From NCBI GenBank assembly GCA_001430755.1, contig CP013062.1:540001-572000 (forward strand): a DNA stretch of 32,000 nucleotides, given 5' to 3'. Shown in pieces: positions 14,388 to 24,302 of the stretch (positions are counted from its first letter, which is position 1; the number at the start of each line of letters is the position of its first letter). The stretch is from Candidatus Peribacter riflensis. GTDB lineage: Bacteria; Patescibacteriota; Gracilibacteria; Peribacterales; Peribacteraceae. The position numbers were made by a program, and so were the translations under genes. Under the pieces are notes generated by a model. It was not told the origin of the DNA and did no database searches. It was given only the letters and a program-made list of their open reading frames with translations.

Positions 14388-14477
14388 TGGCGGAAGCGGG
14401 AGGATTCGAACCTCCGAGACCCTTGCGGGTCTACCTGTTTTCAAGACAGGCCCGATCGACCACTCTGGCACGCTTCC
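14388..14477 (-). tRNA. tRNA-Ser (anticodon UGA), CCA encoded
   Basis: Reverse complement GGAAGCG-TG-CCAGAGTGGTCGATCGGG-CCTGT-CT-TGA-AA-ACAGG-(long variable arm TAGACCCGCAAGGGTCTC)-GGAGG-TTCGAAT-CCTCC-CGCTTCC-G-CCA. Confidence 0.9.
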
Positions 14478-14647: not shown

Positions 14648-17600
14648 ATGACAGTATCTTCCTCATTCAAACGCGGCGATATCGAGCAAATTCTGAAGAA
14701 AGCAGACATCTTCCATCTGAGCGCGGAGGCTCGTGTACGTCTCAACTGCTTGCTGTACTACTTCACGCACGGCAGGAACGCTTCCGAGACCGCGTGCCAT
14801 TTCGGCATTGCACGTGCAACGTTCTACAACTGGCTGAAGAAAATTAATCTCCATGATCTCTGTGCACTCGAAAATTGCTCAAAGGCCCCGAAGCACGTAC
14901 CGCAACCGATAACGGACGAGCGAACGGTGGATCTGATCCGCAGGCATCGTATGAGCGATCCTCTCCTCGGAAAGAAGAAGCTCAGCAAACACCTGCGCTC
15001 CGCGCATGGCATCTCTCTCTCTGCATCCACGGTCGGGCGCACCATCAACCGACACGGCTTCTACTTCGCCGATACGCCTGCGCACCGCGCAAAGCGTGAC
15101 GAACGCAGGCTGGATGGATGGCGGAAGGCAGTGGTCCTCGTGAGCACCGCCACAGGCGCCTCCCTCCTCGCCGATGTTCCGTTCGCTCACGCACTGGAAG
15201 GTTCAATCTATGAGCTGCATCCGACATCCCCCGATCAAACTGGTGATGGAGTCCTCGAGGGATCGGCGTTCACCCTGCAGGAAGGGGGCATAACAGACAC
15301 AGCACAACCGCTCCAGGGTTCCGTTTTCACAATCACGATACCGGCAGCCGCTTCGTCTTCCTCTCTGTCGTCGTCTTCCCCATCCGCAACACCGGCTGGC
15401 GGTCCTGCGACGGGCGGAGGACGCCGCACGATCCCCGTCGTGCAATTGCCGTCCTCTCCCTCCTCACCGGCTTCTGCCCCCTCTCCCCCCTCCACACCCT
15501 CTCCACTCAAATTCGGAGAATCTCTCTATGCAGTCCCCTCCCCGACGCTTACGGGGACAGCGAAGACCGGCACTCCCGCGAAAGTGACCGACAGCAAGAC
15601 AGGATCTGCCGTGCCTCCTCCCACCCATACCGACCAAACCGGTTCCTACCGCGAAGCAGCCCCGCCGCTGCCACCTGTCGTCGTTACGCCTTCGTTTGCA
15701 GAAACATGGCTGCCCAGCGTGATCTCTGCAGCAGTCGTATTGACAGTGCTCGCAGGTCTCATCGGCCGTACATGGCTGTACCACGTCATCACCAACGGGT
15801 TGGGATGGCGCTCGTTGCGAACCGTTGCGACGCTCTCGCGCAAGTCTTTCTTCGTGTCTCTGATGGGCGCCTCACTCCTCTTCGCCCTCCTCTGGAACAT
15901 CACATCGGCCAGCGCCGCAACGACCGTGCCGCTCACGCGCTGGTATCAGGGACATCTGCTCAACGCGGATGGAAGCGCGGTCACGACAGCCGTGACCATC
16001 CGGTTCAGCGAATGGAAGAGCGCCGATTTCACCGCCGCTGACCTCACGGCGACCGGCTCGATCAACACATCGGCAACCCACTACGTGAACTGGCAGGAGG
16101 AACACACACTGACACCCACAAGCGACGGATCCTTTGCGGTCGAACTGGGATCCGTCAACGCCCTGCCCGACCTGAGCGCGCTGCCCCCCAGCACGCTGAC
16201 GAGCCTCTACCTGCAAGTGGATGTGAAGGTATCGGGCGCGGCAGACTCGACGTACGACCTGCTCGATTCCAACACGAGCAGTGCAACGACAGACAGAACC
16301 TCGATTCTCTCTCTGCCCTTCGCACGCACTGCCGATCTCTTGGACCAGCGCGACACCGGCACGGCAAGCGGCTCCATCCCCGTGCTCACGACGGGTGGCG
16401 CGCTCTCGCTCGACGGAGACCTGACCATCAATGCGGATAATGAAGCAAGTGACGCCACCCTCACCTTCGGCAACAACCTCCTCAACGAAACGCTCAAGTT
16501 CTCGGCAACTCTCAACCGCTTCGACTTCAGTGATGATGTGTCGATCGGCGGAGACCTGGAGGTGACGGGGACGATGTCGGGAGCATTCCTGCAGATCACA
16601 GGGACAGGGGCATCCCCCCTCATCAAAACTCAGGGGGGGAATATCGGCATCGGCACCGCCACACCAGCAGCGCAGCTGGATGTCACCATCTCCATCGGAC
16701 TCAATGGCGAAACCATCGAACATTGGGACGAGGTGCCGCTGGATGATCCCTACAAACTCAAAGACTGGTTTGATACCACGCAGGGAGCAGGACGCATCAG
16801 CGGCGGCAGAATCACCGCCAACGCCGACGGAACCGTCACGGTCCTCGCGGGCTCGGGCCTCGTGCACATCACCGAGGCAACCGTGCAGGAAAACCCCCTC
16901 GACTGTTCCACATGCGGCCAGATCTCGGATCTCGAATACATCACATGGACCGGCACCTCCGCCCTCGTCCTCACGAACAACGATTACAACTACATCTACT
17001 ATGACTACGAAACGGCCAGCGTGCGCGCCACGACGGATTTCAACGCGATCTCCTTCACGCGGGAGTTCACGCTGGGACGCGCGTACCGCAGGGACACTGA
17101 AGTCATCGTGCGTCTCTGTGGCACGAACCTCTGGAACTTCAACCGCAGAGTGCAGCTCTTCGGCGAGGAGGTGTACCCCATCGTGCGGGCAACCGGCATG
17201 GCGATCTCAGAAGTGGGGACACGGGGACTGGCCGTCACTGCGGGTGTGCTCTGGGCGGAACTGGTCAACCGCTTCGTCACCGATGCCTTCTCGACGGCCA
17301 CCGGCACCTTCTCGACATGGCACAGGGACGGGAGCGGCGGCTGGACGGAGACCACGGGCCAGACACAACTGTCCAATACATCCTACGACGACGGAGATGG
17401 CGTGCTGGGAACTCTGACCAACGGACGGTACGGCATCCACTTCATCTACGTGCTGCACGATTCCACGGTGCACTCGGTCTACGGCCAGGTACAGAACTAC
17501 ACCCAACTCCAGGCAGAGGCGGCCCAGCCTCCGGCATCCATTCCGGACCTGCTGGCTTCGTATGCAACACTCATCGGCAAAGTGATCATCCAGAAGAACG

Positions 17601-18013
17601 GCGCCAACTTCGCCGAAATACAGTCCGCCTTTGAACAGACGTTCGCGGGCGCGGGAACCGTCATCCACAATGACACCTCGGGATTGCAGGGTGGAGTGGC
17701 AGCAGAGTACTACCACCTGACCTCGAGCGAATACACGGGAACAGGATCGGGGGTGTTCGTACGCGCCACCTCTCCGACATTCGGCGGTTCCGTCACCCTG
17801 CCGCTCGGCATCTGGAACTCCACCGGCCGCGTGGGCATTGGTACAGCAACACCAGAGACAGAGCTGGAAGTCATCGGCACCCTGTCGGGTTCCTCCATCG
17901 TCAACTCCAGTGGAGGGGGCTACGTAGGCGCTGCAGCCTGTTACCTCGCCAACGGCACGCTCGGCCATTGCACCAGTGCCGATGGGTCATCCTGCGGGTG
18001 CACGGCGAATTAA
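14648..18013 (+). CDS. giant surface protein 1: IS481/IS3-type HTH module, 3 TM segments, tail-fibre-like ectodomain, Cys-rich C-terminus
   Basis: 1121 aa. Residues 1-145 carry HTH ASETACHFGIARATFYNWLKK, then NCSKAPKH, then STVGRTINRHGF. TM segments lie at ~160-180, ~355-375 and ~401-423, and ASA|ATTVPL follows residue 423. The ectodomain carries GNIGIGTATPAAQLDV and GRVGIGTATPETELEV and ends CYLANGTLGHCTSADGSSCGCTAN. Confidence 0.85.
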   Translation: MTVSSSFKRGDIEQILKKADIFHLSAEARVRLNCLLYYFTHGRNASETACHFGIARATFYNWLKKINLHDLCALENCSKAPKHVPQPITDERTVDLIRRHRMSDPLLGKKKLSKHLRSAHGISLSASTVGRTINRHGFYFADTPAHRAKRDERRLDGWRKAVVLVSTATGASLLADVPFAHALEGSIYELHPTSPDQTGDGVLEGSAFTLQEGGITDTAQPLQGSVFTITIPAAASSSSLSSSSPSATPAGGPATGGGRRTIPVVQLPSSPSSPASAPSPPSTPSPLKFGESLYAVPSPTLTGTAKTGTPAKVTDSKTGSAVPPPTHTDQTGSYREAAPPLPPVVVTPSFAETWLPSVISAAVVLTVLAGLIGRTWLYHVITNGLGWRSLRTVATLSRKSFFVSLMGASLLFALLWNITSASAATTVPLTRWYQGHLLNADGSAVTTAVTIRFSEWKSADFTAADLTATGSINTSATHYVNWQEEHTLTPTSDGSFAVELGSVNALPDLSALPPSTLTSLYLQVDVKVSGAADSTYDLLDSNTSSATTDRTSILSLPFARTADLLDQRDTGTASGSIPVLTTGGALSLDGDLTINADNEASDATLTFGNNLLNETLKFSATLNRFDFSDDVSIGGDLEVTGTMSGAFLQITGTGASPLIKTQGGNIGIGTATPAAQLDVTISIGLNGETIEHWDEVPLDDPYKLKDWFDTTQGAGRISGGRITANADGTVTVLAGSGLVHITEATVQENPLDCSTCGQISDLEYITWTGTSALVLTNNDYNYIYYDYETASVRATTDFNAISFTREFTLGRAYRRDTEVIVRLCGTNLWNFNRRVQLFGEEVYPIVRATGMAISEVGTRGLAVTAGVLWAELVNRFVTDAFSTATGTFSTWHRDGSGGWTETTGQTQLSNTSYDDGDGVLGTLTNGRYGIHFIYVLHDSTVHSVYGQVQNYTQLQAEAAQPPASIPDLLASYATLIGKVIIQKNGANFAEIQSAFEQTFAGAGTVIHNDTSGLQGGVAAEYYHLTSSEYTGTGSGVFVRATSPTFGGSVTLPLGIWNSTGRVGIGTATPETELEVIGTLSGSSIVNSSGGGYVGAAACYLANGTLGHCTSADGSSCGCTAN
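15911..16540 (+). repeat. shared block, copy 1 (collinear with 18887-19516)
   Basis: Constant offset of 2976 nt with no indels. The blocks include a 50-nt identical run (16088-16137 = 19064-19113). Most differences I inspected are at third codon positions. Confidence 0.8.
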
Positions 18014-18238
18014 CGTCGCCGCACGGGGCATAACCCCCTAGTGCGACCCCGCCCACGCTACGGCGCACGTGAGCATCACGGCACGACCTCCCTCCCCTCC
18101 CAAGCGGAGAGGAGCTATGCGCGTACTTGCATGTTGCGGGAGGTACGTACTGCAGAGAAGGGCCCGATGACGTGGTCGGGAACTCACGAATACGAAAAGT
18201 CCACAGAGATCCGAAAGATCCGAAAGTCCAGATACATC

Positions 18239-18267
18239 TTGTAAAATCCTCGATTTTGCTGTACGAT
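18239..18267 (+). promoter_or_regulatory. weak promoter candidate for the second giant gene
   Basis: TTGTAA (18239-18244), 17-nt spacer, TACGAT (18262-18267), within the 309-nt spacer between the two giant genes. Confidence 0.3.
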
Positions 18268-18322
18268 AACACGAAAACCCGACATCTCCACCAAAAACTC
18301 ACCACACCCACCACCCCACAGC

Positions 18323-21300
18323 GTGCTGCGCCCGGAATCACGCCCCCAGAGGGAAGACATCGAGAAGCTTCTCCATGAAGCGGAGCGCCTCCAGTTGAGC
18401 GGCGGCGTGCAGCAGAAACTCCAGTGGTTTCTCTACGCCCTCGACCACGACAATGATCCGAAGAGTGTCAGCGAAGAGTTCAATATTTCCTCTTCGACAT
18501 TCCGCCGCTGGCTCAAGCGTTTTGATCCGGATGATATCACCTCCCTCGAAGAGAAATCGCGGAGACCCCATACGGTCCGTGAGCCCGACATCCTCCCGGA
18601 GGTCGTCGAGCTGATCCGCCAGTACCGCGCGCAGTACCCGACGATGGGCAAAGAGCGCATTCACGAGGCCCTGCAGAGAGAACACGACATCGTTGTCTCT
18701 CCTTCGAGCATCGGTCGTATCATTCAACGCGAACGTTTCTTCTTCGCAGATACCTTTTCGCACCTGAAGAAACTCAATCCCAATCCTCCGCCTGCATCAT
18801 CTTCGACTTCCCAACCGGGTGTATCCGCACTCCTCCTGCTCTTCTGCGCCGCCACCGCGGTCTTCCTCTCTGGAACGCCGCAGGCGAGCGCCGCAACGAC
18901 TGTTCCGCTCACGCGCTGGTATCAGGGCCACCTGCTGAACAGCGACGGCAGCGCCGTCACCACAGCCATCACCATCCGGTTCAGCGAGTGGAAGAGCGCG
19001 GACTTCACCGCCAGTGACCTCACCGCGACCGGCTCGATCAATACATCGGCAACCCACTACGTAAACTGGCAGGAGGAACACACACTGACACCCACAAGCG
19101 ACGGATCCTTTGCAGTCGAACTCGGCTCCATCACGGCGCTTCCGGATCTGGCCACGCTCCCGCCCGCAACGCTCCAGAACATGTACCTGCAGGTGGAAGT
19201 GAAGACCTCGGGTGCGGCAGATTCCACCTATGACCTCCTGGATAGCAACACGAGCGATACGGCCATCGACCGCACATCGATCCTGTCGCTCCCCTTCGCC
19301 CGCAATGCAGACCTCCTCGATCAGCGCGATACGGGCACCGCGAGCGGTTCCATTCCCGTGCTCACGAACGGAGGCGCGCTCTCCCTCGACGGTGATCTCA
19401 CCATCAATGCCGACAACGCAGCAGCGGATGCTGTGCTGACCTTCGGCAACGCGATCCTCGCCGAAACACTCAGGTTCTCGACGACGAACAGCCGCTTCGA
19501 ATTCAGTGATGATGTCTACGTCGAAGGAACACTCTCGACCTCCGGCGCACTCGTGATTGCACCAAGACCGGGGACGGAGACGGGCACTACCCTCATCGTC
19601 GATACCAAGGGCTTAGTCTACGATGCAACGAACAAGAGGGTGGGTATCGGGACGGCGACGCCGGAGGCCGCACTGGATCTTACGCTCTCCTCCGCAACAG
19701 AAACGGGCATGATCATCAAAGGCGCTGCCTCCCAAACGACCAACCTGCAGGAATGGCAGGCGAATGACGGAACGGTGGTAGGCTCAATCACTCCGCACGG
19801 CGACCTGACGCTGACCGGGACTAACAGCCCCGGAGGAAGATTCATTCAGATTTTCCCGTGGAACCAGCACGACAATAATTCAGCCAAGATCGCTATCTGG
19901 TCGAGCAATTTGAATTATTCAACGTTGCAGGGCACTTCACTGACGTTCAACAACAATAATATCGGATCTGCAGGGGTCGGACTCGGAAACGGATCCAATC
20001 TTTCGGTGATTGATGCTTCAGGTAACCTGACCACGGCGAATGCCGGCGGACTTGCAATCGGCGCAGCCGGAACCGCAACACCCTTTGGCACCCCGCCTTC
20101 AAATGGAGCAATCATCAGCGGTAACGTCGGCATCGGCACCACCGCACCCGAAACCAAGCTCGAAGTCGTCGGAACGATGAGCGGTACGAAACTCAAGATC
20201 ACCGGAACGGGATCCCTCAGCGATCTTACGTTCCCGTCCATGCAGCTCGGCACATCCACCTATTCCACGGTGCGAGACTTCATGAATTCTTTCGGCTCCA
20301 CCGGCCGCAAATCAGGGGGCGTCATTGCTGATGCCGGATCCTCGACCGTGGCGGTGACGGGAGGAACGGGTTTCATCAAGGCAACGGACGATGACGACGC
20401 CCCGTTGCTGTTCTTCGACTTCCCCGCCCCGGCCAACATCAGCATCCCCGCCGGTTCCACACGGTACATCGGCGTCGAGTACAACAGCGGCTCCCCACAG
20501 GTCGTCGCCCGGACGTCATGGAACTGGAACCTGGATACCGAGTTCCCCTTGGGCGCGGTCATCAACGAAAACGTGGGCGGCATCGACGAGCTGTACATCG
20601 AAAACAATCCCTGGTGGGTGACGGATGGCACAACGAACATCATCGAAGCCATCAGAAGCCTCGGGCTCATTCGCAGGGACCAGACAACGGGAGGCCTCAT
20701 GCTCTCTGTCACGGGAACCCGCAACATCGCTGTCAGCGCAGGAACGCTGTGGAGCAACTTAAATGAGTTCGACTTGGCTGCCGTCGATACCTCCGCGGCG
20801 GGAACAATAGAGTACTACTGGTACAAAGCGGGAACCGGCTGGCAAACATCGGATGTTTCGCAGTACTCAGTGACGCAGTGGAACGATGTCACGCAGGCGG
20901 CACTGCAAACCATGGAGAACAACAAGTACGGGAACGTCTGGGTGTACACGGAAGTGGTCAATGACAACCCCTCGGTGGCCTTGCTGTACCCGCAAGCCCA
21001 GTATAACACCGCTGCGGAGGCAGAGGCCACGAATGCCCCCTCCAACATCCCGACGCACATTACCGAAATGGGAATGCTGATCGGACGGATCATCATCAAG
21101 AAAGGGGTGGATACCCCGGTTGCGGTCGAATCGGCATTCGGAACAACCTTCAGCGCCAGTGTCACCACGGACCACGGCAATCTGGCGGGCCTCACGGACG
21201 ACGACCACACGCAGTACCTCCTCTTAACTGGTAGAAGTGGACAGCGCGTGAATGACTCCGTGGAATTCACCGGAACGGCCTCCGGACGCATCTTAAGCTT

Positions 21301-23182
21301 CGGCACGCGACTGACGGGATCAGGCAATGTCTCCATCCGCACCCTCACGGACTCCACCACCGCCTTCCAGGTGCTCGATGCTGACGGAGGTAATCCCGTC
21401 TTCAACATCGATACGGACAATGAGCGCGTGGGCATCGGCACCACCGCGCCCGAAACCGCACTCGAAGTCGTGGGCACCGCCTCGGGCAACTACATTTTCG
21501 GGCAGCAGGGACTGGGCTCCTCGGGGGCGCTCGCAGTCCTCGGGAACATCTATAACAGAGCGGATAATGCGAAGCATTACTTCGGCGCGGGCAACGACGC
21601 CTCCATTACCTACGACGGAACGAATATGTTGATAAACCCCAAGGAAGTGGGGACGGGGGAGTTGAGGGTTTCGGGCAACGTGAACATCGGCTCAACAACC
21701 ACAGCAAACATGGCGCAGGTTGCAGAGCTGAATGTAAGAGGGACGGATGCGGGCATTTTGATTGACGGCAATAATTCCAACAACTGGCTCAAACTCCAAT
21801 ATTCAACTGGCGGGGGCCATGTTCTCTTCACAACCCCAGCAGTCGAGTGGGTCTACCGTCTTAACCAAGCAAGTCTTGACGCTGATTTCGTGATTGGCAG
21901 GTACGCAGCCAATATCGTTGAGATGCGAGGCAGGTACAACTACAACGCTGGGGTAAGCCACAGCCTTCTTTTGACAGGTGGGCGATGGAATAATGCCCCC
22001 GCTGGGAATCTCTACCTTCGTGGAGGACAGGGGCTTGGAGTCGGTGCGCCTGGTGTCATTAAGCTTCAATCACCCGACGGAACGCAGGATATTCTTACGA
22101 CCAGCGCAACAGACAATCACCTTCATTCTCCAGACAACATCAAGCACCTATACGGCACAGGGGACGACGCCTCCATTACCTATGACGGGACGAACATGGT
22201 GATCAATCCGAAGGAAGTGGGAAGTGGATACCTGAAAATCCCCGGCACCGCCTCGGGCAATTACATCTTCGGGCAGCAGGGGCTCGGCGCATCGGGTGCC
22301 GTGGTGATCAAAAAACTCTCCGGCACGGGCACGGGCAACATCTTCATCGTCGATACCAAGGGACTCGTCTACGATGCGACGAACAAAAGAGTGGGGATTG
22401 GGACGGCAAGTCCGGAGTATACACTCGACGTGAACGGAGGGGCGGCTGTGAGCAATCTCCAAATGGGAGATGTGGGGTACGGGGCGTTCTTCCCGGGCCT
22501 GACGTACAAGGGAAACGCAGCGGGAGGCTACGCGATGTTCACCACAAACGGAGGGGCCTACACCGTCCTGAATAAGAGCACCGCCGACGGACACATCGGA
22601 TTCAGGGTGAACAACGTGGACAAGATGGTCGTCGATGAAAACGGCAACGTGGGCATCGGCACAATCACTCCCGAAAACAGGCTCGAAGTCGTCGGCTCCA
22701 TGTCCGGCCGCACGCTGCAGGTGACGGGCACGGGGGCGGCACCGTTGATCTACACGGATACGACAACGGGAAGAGTGGGCATTGGCACAGCAACACCGGG
22801 CTACGTGCTCGATGTGCAGCACGCCACCGACAAGATCAACTCCAAGAACGGCTACCTGACGGACGGAGCCGACTACGCCGAGTACTTCCCGAATGAAGAG
22901 AATATTCTGGAAGGTTCGCTCGTCGGCATCAACATGGAAACGGGCAAGGCGCGCCGGTACCGCTTCGGCGACGAATTCATCGGCATCGCATCGGATGGAC
23001 ACGGATTCGTGGGCAACGGGAAGAGGGGCATCGAAGATAACCCGAAGTATGCGCTCGTGGGGCTGCTCGGCCAGCTCACCGTTCGTCCGGAGGAAGTGAC
23101 GATCAGGGGACGCCTGGTCTTTACCCGGGACGGCAAACGGATCGGTCTCTTGCTCGAGAACGGAAAAGTGCTGCTGCGGTGA
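18323..23182 (+). CDS. giant surface protein 2: IS481/IS3-type HTH module, single signal-anchor, tail-fibre-like ectodomain, Peptidase_G2-like C-terminal domain (GTG start)
   Basis: 1619 aa. HTH VSEEFNISSSTFRRWLKR, then EKSRRPH, then SSIGRIIQRERF. The hydrophobic segment GVSALLLLFCAATAVFLSGTPQASA|ATTVPL follows. There are six xxVGIGTxxPExxL(E/D)V motifs. The C-terminus reads GYLTDGADYAEYFPNEENILEGSLVGINMETGKARRYRFGDEFIGIAS. Confidence 0.85.
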   Translation: MLRPESRPQREDIEKLLHEAERLQLSGGVQQKLQWFLYALDHDNDPKSVSEEFNISSSTFRRWLKRFDPDDITSLEEKSRRPHTVREPDILPEVVELIRQYRAQYPTMGKERIHEALQREHDIVVSPSSIGRIIQRERFFFADTFSHLKKLNPNPPPASSSTSQPGVSALLLLFCAATAVFLSGTPQASAATTVPLTRWYQGHLLNSDGSAVTTAITIRFSEWKSADFTASDLTATGSINTSATHYVNWQEEHTLTPTSDGSFAVELGSITALPDLATLPPATLQNMYLQVEVKTSGAADSTYDLLDSNTSDTAIDRTSILSLPFARNADLLDQRDTGTASGSIPVLTNGGALSLDGDLTINADNAAADAVLTFGNAILAETLRFSTTNSRFEFSDDVYVEGTLSTSGALVIAPRPGTETGTTLIVDTKGLVYDATNKRVGIGTATPEAALDLTLSSATETGMIIKGAASQTTNLQEWQANDGTVVGSITPHGDLTLTGTNSPGGRFIQIFPWNQHDNNSAKIAIWSSNLNYSTLQGTSLTFNNNNIGSAGVGLGNGSNLSVIDASGNLTTANAGGLAIGAAGTATPFGTPPSNGAIISGNVGIGTTAPETKLEVVGTMSGTKLKITGTGSLSDLTFPSMQLGTSTYSTVRDFMNSFGSTGRKSGGVIADAGSSTVAVTGGTGFIKATDDDDAPLLFFDFPAPANISIPAGSTRYIGVEYNSGSPQVVARTSWNWNLDTEFPLGAVINENVGGIDELYIENNPWWVTDGTTNIIEAIRSLGLIRRDQTTGGLMLSVTGTRNIAVSAGTLWSNLNEFDLAAVDTSAAGTIEYYWYKAGTGWQTSDVSQYSVTQWNDVTQAALQTMENNKYGNVWVYTEVVNDNPSVALLYPQAQYNTAAEAEATNAPSNIPTHITEMGMLIGRIIIKKGVDTPVAVESAFGTTFSASVTTDHGNLAGLTDDDHTQYLLLTGRSGQRVNDSVEFTGTASGRILSFGTRLTGSGNVSIRTLTDSTTAFQVLDADGGNPVFNIDTDNERVGIGTTAPETALEVVGTASGNYIFGQQGLGSSGALAVLGNIYNRADNAKHYFGAGNDASITYDGTNMLINPKEVGTGELRVSGNVNIGSTTTANMAQVAELNVRGTDAGILIDGNNSNNWLKLQYSTGGGHVLFTTPAVEWVYRLNQASLDADFVIGRYAANIVEMRGRYNYNAGVSHSLLLTGGRWNNAPAGNLYLRGGQGLGVGAPGVIKLQSPDGTQDILTTSATDNHLHSPDNIKHLYGTGDDASITYDGTNMVINPKEVGSGYLKIPGTASGNYIFGQQGLGASGAVVIKKLSGTGTGNIFIVDTKGLVYDATNKRVGIGTASPEYTLDVNGGAAVSNLQMGDVGYGAFFPGLTYKGNAAGGYAMFTTNGGAYTVLNKSTADGHIGFRVNNVDKMVVDENGNVGIGTITPENRLEVVGSMSGRTLQVTGTGAAPLIYTDTTTGRVGIGTATPGYVLDVQHATDKINSKNGYLTDGADYAEYFPNEENILEGSLVGINMETGKARRYRFGDEFIGIASDGHGFVGNGKRGIEDNPKYALVGLLGQLTVRPEEVTIRGRLVFTRDGKRIGLLLENGKVLLR
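18887..19516 (+). repeat. shared block, copy 2 (collinear with 15911-16540)
   Basis: See copy 1. It encodes ATTVPLTRWYQGHLLN...LTINADN...LTFGN...FSDDV in both genes. Confidence 0.8.
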
Positions 23183-23261: not shown

Positions 23262-24302
23262 ATGGTGCCTCCGACGCTCCTCACCAAGACGTGCACGTCT
23301 GTTTTCGTGCTCTCTCTGCTTTTGCCCTCAATGGCATCAGCAGCAGAAACCGCCGCGTTCAAAGACATCCCATCGGGTTCGCCCGTGGCGGAAGCTGCAG
23401 AGTATCTGCGCAGTGTCGACATCCTGAGTGGATATCCCGACGGTACCTTCCGTCCCGACCAGAAGGTGAACCGCGCAGAGGCGATCAAAGTCATCATCGG
23501 TCCCCTGCTCAAGAAAGAAGCGCTGCAGGAGCTCATCTCGACCCCATTCACGGATATCAAAACCGGAGAGTGGTACCTGCCCTACGTGGAGGCAGCCCGT
23601 CAGAACTCCATTGTGGATGGCCCGCCCATGAGGGCCGCATTCAACGGCACGAAGCCCGTGACCAAAATGGAATTCATCAAGATGCTCCTGCTCGCCTATC
23701 GCATTGACCCCAGCTCTTATAGCGAGATCCGCCTGCCGCTCTCACAGGATGCCACCGATCCAGCCGCGTGGTACTACCCCTACTTGCGCTACGCCATCAC
23801 CGCATCCATGACCGCAGTGACGGACAAGGGCACCTTCGATCCGGGGCGGGAACTCACGCGCGGCGACACTGCACTCATTCTCTACCGCTTTCTCATGTAC
23901 CGATCGGGCAAGCGCACGCAGGCCCTCCTCTCGGAGGCGGAGAGCGAGATCCTCGTCGTCCTGAGCAGCCTGGAGCAGAACAATCCCGAACAGGCCGAGT
24001 ACGCCTCGGCCCGCGCCCTGCTCGCTGCCCGCGGCGCGAATGCAGGAACCCCCAATCAGCCTCTCGTACAAGGCGCGCTCAAGATCACCGAGGCATTCCG
24101 TGCGATTGTGCGCGCGTACCGCGCCGGCTTGAGCCAGCAGTTTGATGAGACCATCCGCCTGTGCGGGGATGCCTGGAATCTGGCCACCCGCGGCAAGGAG
24201 TTGAGTCCCGGCTTGGCGGACCTGAGCGATCAGGTGCAGGCACTCGCCAAGAATCTCGCCGACAGTGCGAGGGCGGCGAAGGCCGGACCCGCCACCCCAT
24301 GA
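23262..24302 (+). CDS. SLH (S-layer homology) domain protein
   Basis: Signal peptide ending SMASA|AE. Two SLH-like units are present: FKDIPSGSPVAEAAEYLRSVDILSGYPDGTFRPDQKVNRAEAIKVI and FTDIKTGEWYLPYVEAARQNSIVDG...TKPVTKMEFIKMLL. The C-terminal half is helical. Confidence 0.75.
   Translation: MVPPTLLTKTCTSVFVLSLLLPSMASAAETAAFKDIPSGSPVAEAAEYLRSVDILSGYPDGTFRPDQKVNRAEAIKVIIGPLLKKEALQELISTPFTDIKTGEWYLPYVEAARQNSIVDGPPMRAAFNGTKPVTKMEFIKMLLLAYRIDPSSYSEIRLPLSQDATDPAAWYYPYLRYAITASMTAVTDKGTFDPGRELTRGDTALILYRFLMYRSGKRTQALLSEAESEILVVLSSLEQNNPEQAEYASARALLAARGANAGTPNQPLVQGALKITEAFRAIVRAYRAGLSQQFDETIRLCGDAWNLATRGKELSPGLADLSDQVQALAKNLADSARAAKAGPATP

What the first reader, a model, noticed from the sequence alone, without database searches (positions are those of the whole stretch)
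15911..19516. 630-nt collinear high-identity block shared by the two giant genes, with diverged distal parts
15911-16540 and 18887-19516 align at a fixed 2976-nt offset without indels. They contain a 50-nt identical run (16088-16137 = 19064-19113), while the sequence on either side of the block is much more diverged. The block starts exactly at the AxA|ATT junction. Both proteins thus present the same membrane-proximal ~210 aa and different distal modules. That is the layout of receptor-binding proteins with a constant anchor and exchangeable tips. The identity island suggests gene conversion or recombination between the copies.
Basis: seen in the sequence. Interest (0 to 1): 0.6.

Follow-up and report, generated by a model that had tools for sequence, protein, structure and literature searches.

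The report
Shared mosaic module in two fibre genes
Two neighbouring giant surface-fibre genes of a Peribacter (CPR) bacterium share one conserved 210-residue module because recombination has repeatedly re-joined that module to different front and back ends, and about 230 bases of it carry extra identity that fits copying between the two genes; this is ordinary mosaic evolution of a surface-protein family, seen here in an uncultured lineage.

Summary
15911-16540 and 18887-19516 align at offset 2976 without indels, 80.3% nt and 86% aa identical, with an exact 50-nt run at 16088-16137. The rest of the two genes is 29-35% aa identical.

The block is the first module of the mature ectodomain of a Peribacteria-wide family (25 of 41 related genomes). 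Within the genus it is 74-86% conserved and carries several unrelated distal parts, so "constant base, exchangeable tips" fits.

The island is not one conversion tract. Gene 2 is a chimera: its HTH and first membrane helix belong to another HTH lineage (nearest P0007) and are fused at the AxA site to a gene-1-lineage block (AU p=1.5e-4).

The block itself has three histories:
- 15911-16141: the genes are closest to each other (dS 0.39, against 1.0-1.3 for housekeeping genes between species). This fits gene conversion.
- 16145-16342: gene 2 is closest to another species' gene (dS 0.46, against 1.24 to gene 1).
- 16343-16540: ordinary divergence.

A gene1::gene2 hybrid protein in the database comes from a protein-level assembly and is probably an artefact. 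Reads could not be checked. Anchoring and receptor binding remain inference. Another first-stage note covers the same stretch of this genome.

The parts
14648..18013 (+). Gene 1 (1121 aa).
   Evidence: ORF; translation; HTH_28/HTH_32; IS481-type HTH only, far below cut-off; hydropathy; family alignment
18323..23182 (+). Gene 2 (1619 aa). Order of parts: HTH of a different lineage, one membrane helix, AxA, shared block, long fibre with six GIGT..P repeats, tail-fibre-like module, Peptidase_G2-like C-terminus.
   Evidence: A database variant starts 19 codons upstream.
15911..16540 (+). Shared block, copy in gene 1 (aa 422-631).
   Evidence: Model: confident beta-sandwich at block residues 10-130, disordered 138-157, beta unit 170-210.
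18887..19516 (+). Shared block, copy in gene 2 (aa 189-398).
15911..16141 (+). Segment A (gene 2: 18887-19117). Here the two genes are each other's nearest relatives: 90% nt, dS 0.39, and dS 0.24 in 16024-16141. This is the candidate gene-conversion tract.
16088..16137 (+). Exact 50-nt run (gene 2: 19064-19113). It is the core of 16049-16137, which has 2 mismatches in 89 nt.
16145..16342 (+). Segment B (gene 2: 19121-19318). Gene 1 and gene 2 are as diverged as orthologues (dS 1.24). The gene 2 copy is closest to the G005 gene (87% nt, dS 0.46; clade support 99/98).
16343..16540 (+). Segment C (gene 2: 19319-19516). Intermediate divergence (dS 0.82) with no resolved nearest relative. It contains a repeat unit that recurs several times in other family members.
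18809..18892 (+). The single membrane helix of gene 2 and its A-S-A site, which is the 5' fusion joint. Up to 'PQA' it follows the first helix of P0007-type proteins. From A-S-A-A onward it follows the gene-1-lineage block.
15908..15916 (+). A-S-A codons of gene 1 at the end of its last hydrophobic segment. Cleavage is predicted after 15916.
   Evidence: By analogy with the third copy in this genome, where a classical signal peptide ends in ASA just before the block.
20255..21160 (+). Tail-fibre-like module of gene 2 (aa 645-946). Gene 1 aa 697-1010 is 29% identical to it.
   Evidence: phrog_5668 'tail fiber protein' E=2.2e-40
22823..23017 (+). Peptidase_G2-like (intramolecular chaperone) stretch at the end of gene 2.
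   Evidence: PF11962, 21.7 bits against a cut-off of 25, E=1.4e-4
23262..24302 (+). Neighbouring SLH-domain gene. It lies next to family members in several relatives and is a possible cell-wall partner (speculative).

Best explanation
The island is the one module that two differently assembled mosaic genes still share. It is the first module of the mature ectodomain of a Peribacteria surface-fibre family: a beta-sandwich, a linker and a first beta repeat. It is kept constant by purifying selection, while recombination at its two edges has attached different N-terminal HTH and membrane parts and different distal fibre parts. Gene 2 arose by fusing the HTH and first membrane helix of one lineage, at the short A-x-A-A motif, to a gene-1-lineage block plus a P0006-like long fibre, so it skips the Ser/Pro-rich stretch and the two further helices. 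Later homologous exchanges patched the block. About 230 nt (15911-16141, core 16049-16137) were homogenised between the tandem copies by gene conversion, after this species split from its sister species. About 200 nt (16145-16342) of gene 2 share a more recent ancestor with another Peribacter species' gene. Shown: coordinates, identities, incongruent trees, breakpoints and dS values. Inferred: the RecA-type mechanism, the direction of transfer, signal-peptidase cleavage at AxA, and the roles of the constant module as docking or stalk base and of the distal parts as the binding ends.
For: - **The island.** Searches confirm it.
- **Family spread.** The module matches in 25 of 41 related genomes, 34 loci in species genomes and about 30 HTH-bearing proteins. 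In the third copy in this genome, and in many relatives with only 29-90 residues upstream, the module follows a plain signal peptide.
- **Distal architectures.** On a block that is 74-86% identical: G005 and G008A end in '...LTYR.R'; gene 1 and G001 have a fibre module and a Cys tail; gene 2 and P0006 have a long fibre and a G2-like end; P0005 and P0008 differ again.
- **HTH tree.** Gene 2 sits in a starred clade (97/97) with P0007, P0011-13, P0018-19 and L053.
- **Block tree.** Those seven stay together elsewhere (99/94), while gene 2 lies in the starred (100/97) clade with gene 1, G001 and G005. The AU test rejects placing gene 2 with its HTH clade (lnL lower by 216, p=1.5e-4).
- **5' joint.** Gene 2 aa 5-193 is 67% identical to P0007 aa 22-210 through the first helix up to 'PQA.AA'.
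- **3' edge.** Gene 2 stays collinear with P0006 at 75% nt from just before the block to 660 nt beyond it. Gene 1 does so for only about 70 nt.
- **dS calibration.** Transketolase G000-G005 gives 1.02 and G000-G001 gives 1.29. Segment A gene 1-gene 2 gives 0.39, against 0.89-3.07 for other pairs. Segment B gene 1-gene 2 gives 1.24, but gene 2-G005 gives 0.46.
- **Breakpoint tests.** Nineteen consecutive gene-1-like informative sites are followed by nineteen G005-like sites at about 16141/16147. Max-chi2 p ranges from 0.0002 to 0.007. The longest-run permutation for gene 1-gene 2 gives p=0.002. The segment B tree groups gene 2 with G005 at 99/98, and the AU test against a gene 1+gene 2 clade gives p=0.03.
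- **Recombination genes.** recA and ruv genes are reported for Ca. Peribacter riflensis genomes (PMC4736985).
Against: - The nucleotide tests use only 7 sequences and short segments (66-77 codons).
- p-values are not corrected for the 21 pairs tested. With Bonferroni correction the gene 1-gene 2 run test is about 0.04.
- In the segment A tree, gene 1+gene 2 is not resolved as an exclusive clade against G005: gene 2 has a zero-length branch, and the AU test does not reject gene 2+G005.
- dS of 0.24-0.39 means any conversion is old, so nothing shows an ongoing process.
- Gene 2 is invariant in all near-identical database records.
- Ancestral polymorphism or an unsampled third donor could produce the same mosaic.
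- The clade for the AU test was named after identities had been seen.
Confidence: 0.7

Rival explanations
1. Purifying selection only. The block is simply the most constrained domain of two old paralogues, and no exchange has occurred.
For: The block is highly conserved in all genus members at 74-86% aa. In the last 130 codons, gene 1-gene 2 dN and dS (0.17 and 0.98) match other pairs.
Against: Constraint on the protein does not lower synonymous divergence in one pair only: segment A dS is 0.39 against 0.89-3.07 for the others. It also does not explain the HTH/block tree conflict, the switch of nearest relative at about 16141, or why the block of gene 2 differs from the block type that accompanies its HTH lineage, which is only 54-62% and 45-49% identical.
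Confidence: 0.08
2. Recent tandem duplication of a whole gene, followed by very fast divergence of everything except the block.
For: The two genes are adjacent, have the same orientation and the same overall layout.
Against: The flanks are not fast-diverged orphans. Each has closer relatives elsewhere than in the other copy. The HTH of gene 2 is 75% identical to P0007 against 35% to gene 1. The distal part of gene 2 is 73% identical to P0039 and 69% to P0006. The HTH of gene 1 is 71-73% identical to G005 and G001. G001 and the L036 genome hold a single gene at the syntenic site.
Confidence: 0.04
3. An active cassette-type variation system. The block serves as a recombination handle for frequent tip or N-terminus swapping between the tandem genes within a population, including deletion hybrids.
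For: The genes form a direct repeat 2976 nt apart with an 89-nt near-identical core. A database protein, P0004, equals gene 1 aa 1-509 plus gene 2 aa 277-1227. Module shuffling is common in the family.
Against: P0004 exists only in the SRC catalogue, which was built by the protein-level assembler Plass. Plass merges overlaps of at least 90% aa identity and admits chimeras. The junction of P0004 (16160-16174) has 4 mismatches in 15 nt, so a DNA crossover there is unlikely. No contig encodes it. Gene 2 and gene 1 are invariant in about 30 and 23 contigs respectively. The dS values show the exchanges are old.
Confidence: 0.1
4. An assembly or polishing artefact homogenised part of the two copies in this genome.
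For: The genome derives from metagenomes, and repeats can be mis-polished.
Against: The contig is a closed 1.25 Mb. The same proteins were recovered on 20+7+2+1 contigs (gene 2) and 23 contigs (gene 1) from several sources. The near-identical core of 89 nt is shorter than a read, and the 124 differences are mostly synonymous and in frame.
Confidence: 0.02

Closest known systems
Mosaic phage tail fibres and receptor-binding proteins, with a conserved N-terminal attachment part and exchangeable C-terminal tips (T-even and lambdoid fibres, R-type pyocin fibres; from general knowledge)
   Same: A constant N-terminal module carries several unrelated distal parts. Breakpoints lie at module edges. 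The distal part of gene 2 is homologous to a phage tail-fibre family (phrog_5668, E=2e-40) and ends in a Peptidase_G2-like stretch.
   Different: These are chromosomal genes among housekeeping genes, not in a phage or tailocin cluster. The constant module follows a signal peptide or membrane helix and matches no known attachment domain. An N-terminal transposase-type HTH is fused or adjacent.
Gene conversion between paralogous surface-protein genes in bacteria (Neisseria opa and pilE/pilS, Borrelia vlsE, Anaplasma msp2; from general knowledge)
   Same: A short tract is homogenised between paralogues in one genome, with lowered dS and a sharp change of nearest relative.
   Different: Both genes are complete. 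There are no silent cassettes. No population-level variants were seen. The tract lies in the constant part, not the variable part, and is old (dS 0.24-0.39).
Tailspike and pre-neck appendage proteins with a C-terminal Peptidase_G2 or S74 intramolecular chaperone
   Same: The last 120 aa of gene 2 resemble PF11962.
   Different: The score is below Pfam's cut-off. Gene 1, which carries the same constant block, lacks the domain. The domain is not part of the shared island.

Membership tests
Gene-conversion tract between tandem paralogues | The paralogues are closer to each other in the tract than either is to orthologues in sister species. | tested here: met
   Segment A: gene 1-gene 2 is 90% nt identical with dS 0.39. 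Other pairs are 71-80% with dS 0.89-3.07. Housekeeping dS between species is 1.0-1.3.
Gene-conversion tract between tandem paralogues | Statistically supported fragment and breakpoints (Sawyer-type run test, max-chi2). | tested here: met
   Run of 24 matching polymorphic sites, p=0.002 uncorrected. Max-chi2 p ranges from 0.0002 to 0.007. These were my own implementations on 7 sequences.
Gene-conversion tract between tandem paralogues | An exclusive gene 1+gene 2 clade in a tree of the tract. | tested here: inconclusive
   In the segment A tree, gene 1, gene 2 and G005 group together, but the order inside the group is unresolved.
Gene-conversion tract between tandem paralogues | The whole 630-nt island is one tract. 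| tested here: not met
   Segment B: gene 1-gene 2 dS is 1.24, and gene 2 is sister to G005 at 99/98.
Constant-base, variable-tip fibre (RBP-like layout) | The same N-terminal module sits on different distal modules among close relatives. | tested here: met
   At least four distal types occur on a block that is 74-86% identical.
Constant-base, variable-tip fibre (RBP-like layout) | The constant module docks the fibre to a conserved partner or to the membrane. | not testable with these tools
   Only the position after a membrane helix and AxA is known. No LPXTG motif is present. An SLH gene is a neighbour in several genomes.
Constant-base, variable-tip fibre (RBP-like layout) | The distal part binds a receptor. 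| not testable with these tools
   Only homology to a phage tail-fibre family is available.
Phage or prophage tail-fibre gene | Located within a phage, prophage or tailocin gene cluster. | tested here: not met
   Neighbours are transketolase, transaldolase, ROK kinase, Mur ligase, RNase HII, Lgt, sortase and TsaD. The site is syntenic in G001, G005 and L036.
Diversity-generating retroelement target | Differences between the copies are concentrated at adenines of one copy. | tested here: not met
   Bases at mismatches are C41/G38/A29/T16 in gene 1 and C45/G34/A27/T18 in gene 2, so there is no adenine bias.
Cassette-type antigenic variation (pilS or vls type) | Silent partial cassettes and frequent variants in the population. 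| tested here: not met
   Both genes are complete ORFs. Database variants differ by 0-1 aa for gene 2 and 2 aa for gene 1. Reads were not available.

The most novel reading that the evidence does not exclude
The conserved block is a purpose-kept recombination handle that lets Peribacter cells, and different Peribacter species, swap fibre tips and N-terminal HTH and membrane parts. This would be a chromosomal host- or partner-range diversification system in a CPR bacterium, analogous to tail-fibre mosaicism in phages. Its output might be coupled to the fused transposase-derived DNA-binding domain.
Probability: 0.12. Interest if true: 0.7.

Novelty: new member of a known kind. Interest (0 to 1): 0.4.

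Why it matters
CPR bacteria are uncultured, and how they contact partners or hosts is largely unknown. This locus shows a family of large fibre proteins built like phage receptor-binding proteins: a constant first module, with shuffled distal parts and shuffled cytoplasmic HTH parts. It also carries traces of exchange both within a genome and between species. That gives a concrete candidate for the variable contact apparatus of Peribacteria, and a defined constant domain (block residues 10-130) to express, localise and use as bait. As evolutionary genetics it is an ordinary case of mosaicism plus a short, old conversion tract.

Tried and rejected
- **Hybrid protein P0004** (gene 1 aa 1-509 plus gene 2 aa 277-1227). 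I first read it as direct evidence for a deletion recombinant. I rejected that because its only source is the Plass-built SRC catalogue, no contig encodes it, and its junction has no nucleotide identity.
- **Metagenome scan.** An exact 40-mer from the identical run found nothing; records near this genome appear to be withheld.
- **Fold searches.** The block model had no match at E<=1e-3 against PDB or viral models. It is only a generic beta-sandwich.
- **Sequence searches.** A sequence search of PDB gave nothing useful. Pfam has no model for the block.
- **DGR reading.** Rejected, because there is no adenine bias.
- **Sortase anchoring.** No LPXTG-like motif is present.
- **Whole-block protein tree.** It places gene 2 weakly with G005 rather than gene 1. 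The segment analysis explained this.
- **Possible upstream homology.** A 10-nt 'CCTCTGGAAC' match displaced by 2 nt just upstream of the block was considered as extended homology. I left it as probable chance.
Full report
**Setting.** The window is G000:C1:540001-572000 of a closed 1.25-Mb genome. Related records name its relatives as Candidatus Peribacteria / Peribacteraceae. The surrounding genes are housekeeping genes: pyruvate kinase, RsmH, ROK kinase, transaldolase and transketolase on one side, and an SLH protein, Mur ligase, RNase HII, Lgt, sortase and TsaD on the other. A tRNA-Ser lies at 14388-14477. Gene 1 is 14648-18013 (1121 aa) and gene 2 is 18323-23182 (1619 aa).

- At offset 2976, 15911-16540 and 18887-19516 are 80.3% identical without indels. 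The mismatches fall 23/21/80 on codon positions 1/2/3, and the 50-nt exact run lies at 16088-16137.
- At the same offset, upstream windows give 13-33% identity up to 15879 and 47% at 15880-15909. Windows from 16540 on mostly give 17-43%, with isolated 60-63% windows at 16600 and 16810. The repeat finder finds the same pair independently.
- At protein level the block is 86% identical. The HTH parts are 35% identical, and the only other alignable module is 29% identical.
- Identity begins at about 15907/15908, with the A-S-A codons themselves. It is uneven: 89.6% up to 16150 and 74.6% after.

**What the two proteins are.**
- Both begin with a transposase-type DNA-binding part. It matches HTH_28 and HTH_32, and covers only the first 110-120 positions of the IS481 and IS630 models, far below their cut-offs.
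- Gene 1 then has a Ser/Pro-rich stretch and two strongly hydrophobic segments at aa 350-381 and 400-420. A first helix ending '...FAHA' is visible in the family alignment.
- Gene 2 has a single hydrophobic segment at aa 163-188. In both genes the block follows an A-S-A motif.
- After the block, both have fibre-like repeats of the GIGT..P type. They also share a module that in gene 2 matches phrog_5668 'tail fiber protein' (E=2.2e-40).
- Gene 2 ends in a sub-threshold Peptidase_G2 match. Gene 1 ends in a Cys-rich tail.

**The block is a family-wide module.**
- It matches in 25 of 41 related genomes searched, including a third copy in this genome at 44% identity. In that copy it directly follows a classical signal peptide ending in ASA. 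A scan of species genomes gave 34 loci.
- In most of them the module lies 29-90 residues from the start of the ORF and is followed by a domain of about 280 aa. Others have 270-545 residues upstream, with or without a recognisable HTH.
- An AlphaFold model built on 38 sequences has mean pLDDT 78. It is confident for a beta-sandwich (residues 10-130, pLDDT above 88), disordered at 138-157, and forms a small beta unit at 170-210.
- Foldseek found no match at E<=1e-3 in PDB or in viral models. The fold is a generic sandwich, and no named family applies.

**Constant module, shuffled flanks.**
- In the same genus, the locus downstream of transketolase holds one or two such genes.
- G001 has one gene. 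It is orthologous to gene 1 at both ends, but its middle is closer to gene 2 (49%), and it has an in-frame TAA inside the block.
- G005 has one gene with the HTH type of gene 1 (71%) but a different distal domain.
- G008 has an HTH-block gene plus a second 1614-aa gene. That second gene has a plain signal peptide, no HTH and no block, and a C-terminus like that of gene 2 (52%).
- Across these genes the block is 74-86% identical, while HTH and distal parts vary widely. This supports the 'constant base, exchangeable tips' layout.

**Gene 2 is a chimera.**
- The database search showed two HTH lineages. Proteins with the HTH type of gene 2 (P0007 at 75%; P0011-13, P0018 and P0019 at 64-69%) carry a different block subtype, only 54-62% and 45-49% identical to the window's block.
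- In the HTH tree, gene 2 sits in a starred clade with those proteins (97/97). In the block tree they remain a clade elsewhere (99/94), while gene 2 falls in the starred clade (100/97) with gene 1, G001 and G005. The AU test rejects keeping gene 2 with its HTH clade (lnL lower by 216, p=1.5e-4). G008A and P0021 show a similar conflict, so shuffling recurs in the family.
- The 5' edge of the island is a true joint. Gene 2 aa 5-193 aligns with P0007 aa 22-210 at 67%, through the first membrane helix up to 'PQA.AA'. After that, P0007 continues into its long linker, whereas gene 2 continues with the block.
- So the single helix of gene 2 corresponds to the first helix of the long layout. The Ser/Pro stretch and the later helices are missing, and the join sits in the short A-x-A-A motif that ends both kinds of helix.
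- The 3' edge is a module boundary, not a joint in gene 2. Gene 2 remains collinear with P0006 (75% nt) for 660 nt beyond the block, while gene 1 does so for about 70 nt.

**Three histories inside the block.** I calibrated with neighbouring housekeeping genes: transketolase gives dS 1.02 against G005 and 1.29 against G001.

| Segment | Gene 1 coordinates | Gene 1-gene 2 dS | Nearest relative of the gene 2 copy |
|---|---|---|---|
| A | 15911-16141 | 0.39 (0.24 in 16024-16141) | gene 1 (other pairs 0.89-3.07) |
| B | 16145-16342 | 1.24 | G005 (dS 0.46, 87% nt) |
| C | 16343-16540 | 0.82 | unresolved |

- With gene 1 and G005 as references, the informative sites of gene 2 show 19 consecutive gene-1-like sites followed by 19 consecutive G005-like sites, switching at about 16141/16147. 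Max-chi2 p ranges from 0.0002 to 0.007, depending on the third sequence.
- A Sawyer-type permutation of polymorphic sites gives p=0.002 for the longest gene 1-gene 2 run. This is uncorrected for 21 pairs.
- The nucleotide tree of segment B groups gene 2 with G005 (99/98), and the AU test gives p=0.03 against a gene 1+gene 2 clade. Segments A and C are poorly resolved.
- The 50-nt exact run is unlikely under an even spread of mismatches (p=0.0015), but it is unremarkable within segment A (p=0.067).
- The mismatch spectrum shows no adenine bias, so a retroelement-driven mechanism is excluded.

**Reading.**
- The 86% protein identity mostly reflects a strongly constrained module that both genes inherited from the same block lineage.
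- The sharp edges are module-swap joints.
- Only about 230 nt at the start carry extra identity that calls for exchange between the two copies. That exchange occurred after the species split but not recently.
- The middle third of gene 2 points to exchange with, or descent from, a G005-like lineage.
- recA and ruv genes are reported for these genomes (PMC4736985), so homologous recombination is plausible. The mechanism and direction are inferred.

**Is exchange going on now?** I could not test this on reads.
- Database records of gene 2 on about 30 contigs differ by 0-1 residue. Gene 1 differs by 2 residues in one record.
- One record, P0004, equals gene 1 aa 1-509 (100%) followed by gene 2 aa 277-1227 (99%).
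- However, it exists only in the SRC catalogue and on no contig. SRC was assembled by Plass at the protein level, which merges overlaps of at least 90% aa identity and acknowledges chimeras.
- The hybrid's junction lies at 16160-16174, where the DNA copies differ at 4 of 15 positions. The amino acids there are identical. I therefore treat P0004 as a probable artefact.
- An exact 40-mer scan of the metagenome contigs returned nothing, probably because near-identical records are withheld.

**Function.**
- The module begins where signal peptidase would cut. In simple relatives it directly follows an ordinary signal peptide. It is therefore most likely the N-terminal module of an exported fibre.
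- Whether it stays tethered to the membrane part is unknown. No sortase motif is present.
- I infer that the constant module docks or supports the fibre on a conserved envelope component. I infer that the variable distal parts, one of them homologous to a phage tail fibre, make the contacts under diversifying pressure.
- An SLH-domain gene lies next to family members in this window, in G001, in L036 and, divergently oriented, in L080. It is a candidate partner, but this is speculation.

**Verdict.** This is a new example of a known kind, the mosaic evolution of surface or tail-fibre-like genes with a short, old conversion tract, in a poorly known lineage. The unusual HTH fusion is the subject of another first-stage note on the same stretch, and I do not score it here.

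Noticed in passing
window 23262-24302; L034 7041-8054; L036 5989-7026; L080 1276-2424: An SLH-domain protein gene lies directly next to HTH/fibre family genes in this window, in G001, in a Logan contig and, divergently oriented, next to P0007. It may be a functional partner.
   Followed up: partly
L036 1966-2802 and 2863-5901; G013, G015, G016, G017: In several relatives the transposase-type HTH sits in a separate 183-278-aa ORF just upstream of the block-bearing ORF instead of being fused to it. The link between HTH and fibre is therefore conserved either as a fusion or as a gene pair.
   Followed up: partly
L034 5094-5096 (G001): The G001 orthologue of gene 1 has an in-frame TAA inside the conserved block. 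It is either a pseudogene or a sequencing error.
   Followed up: no
L082 13216-14775 versus L081: A large serine recombinase gene (Resolvase, Recombinase and Zn_ribbon_recom domains) is called immediately downstream of P0006 in one assembly but not in the other assembly of the same locus.
   Followed up: no
L035 11268-11639 and 18088-18465: Two DUF559/MTES_1575 (Vsr-like endonuclease fold) genes bracket a further giant gene of 1823 aa (F5_F8_type_C, YadA_head) downstream of the HTH/block gene in the G005-like genome.
   Followed up: no
P0004 (database protein, no DNA): A gene 1::gene 2 hybrid protein occurs in the Plass-assembled SRC catalogue. It shows how protein-level assembly can fuse paralogues across a conserved module.
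   Followed up: yes
window 19571-19677 / 22322-22428, 21572-21680 / 22142-22250, 21473-21528 / 22244-22299: Internal direct repeats (72-88% nt) lie inside the distal part of gene 2, in addition to the six GIGT..P units. The fibre itself is built from duplicated modules.
   Followed up: partly
window 18266-18322: One database variant of gene 2 (P0061, 1638 aa) starts 19 codons upstream of the GTG at 18323, so the true start of gene 2 is uncertain.
   Followed up: no
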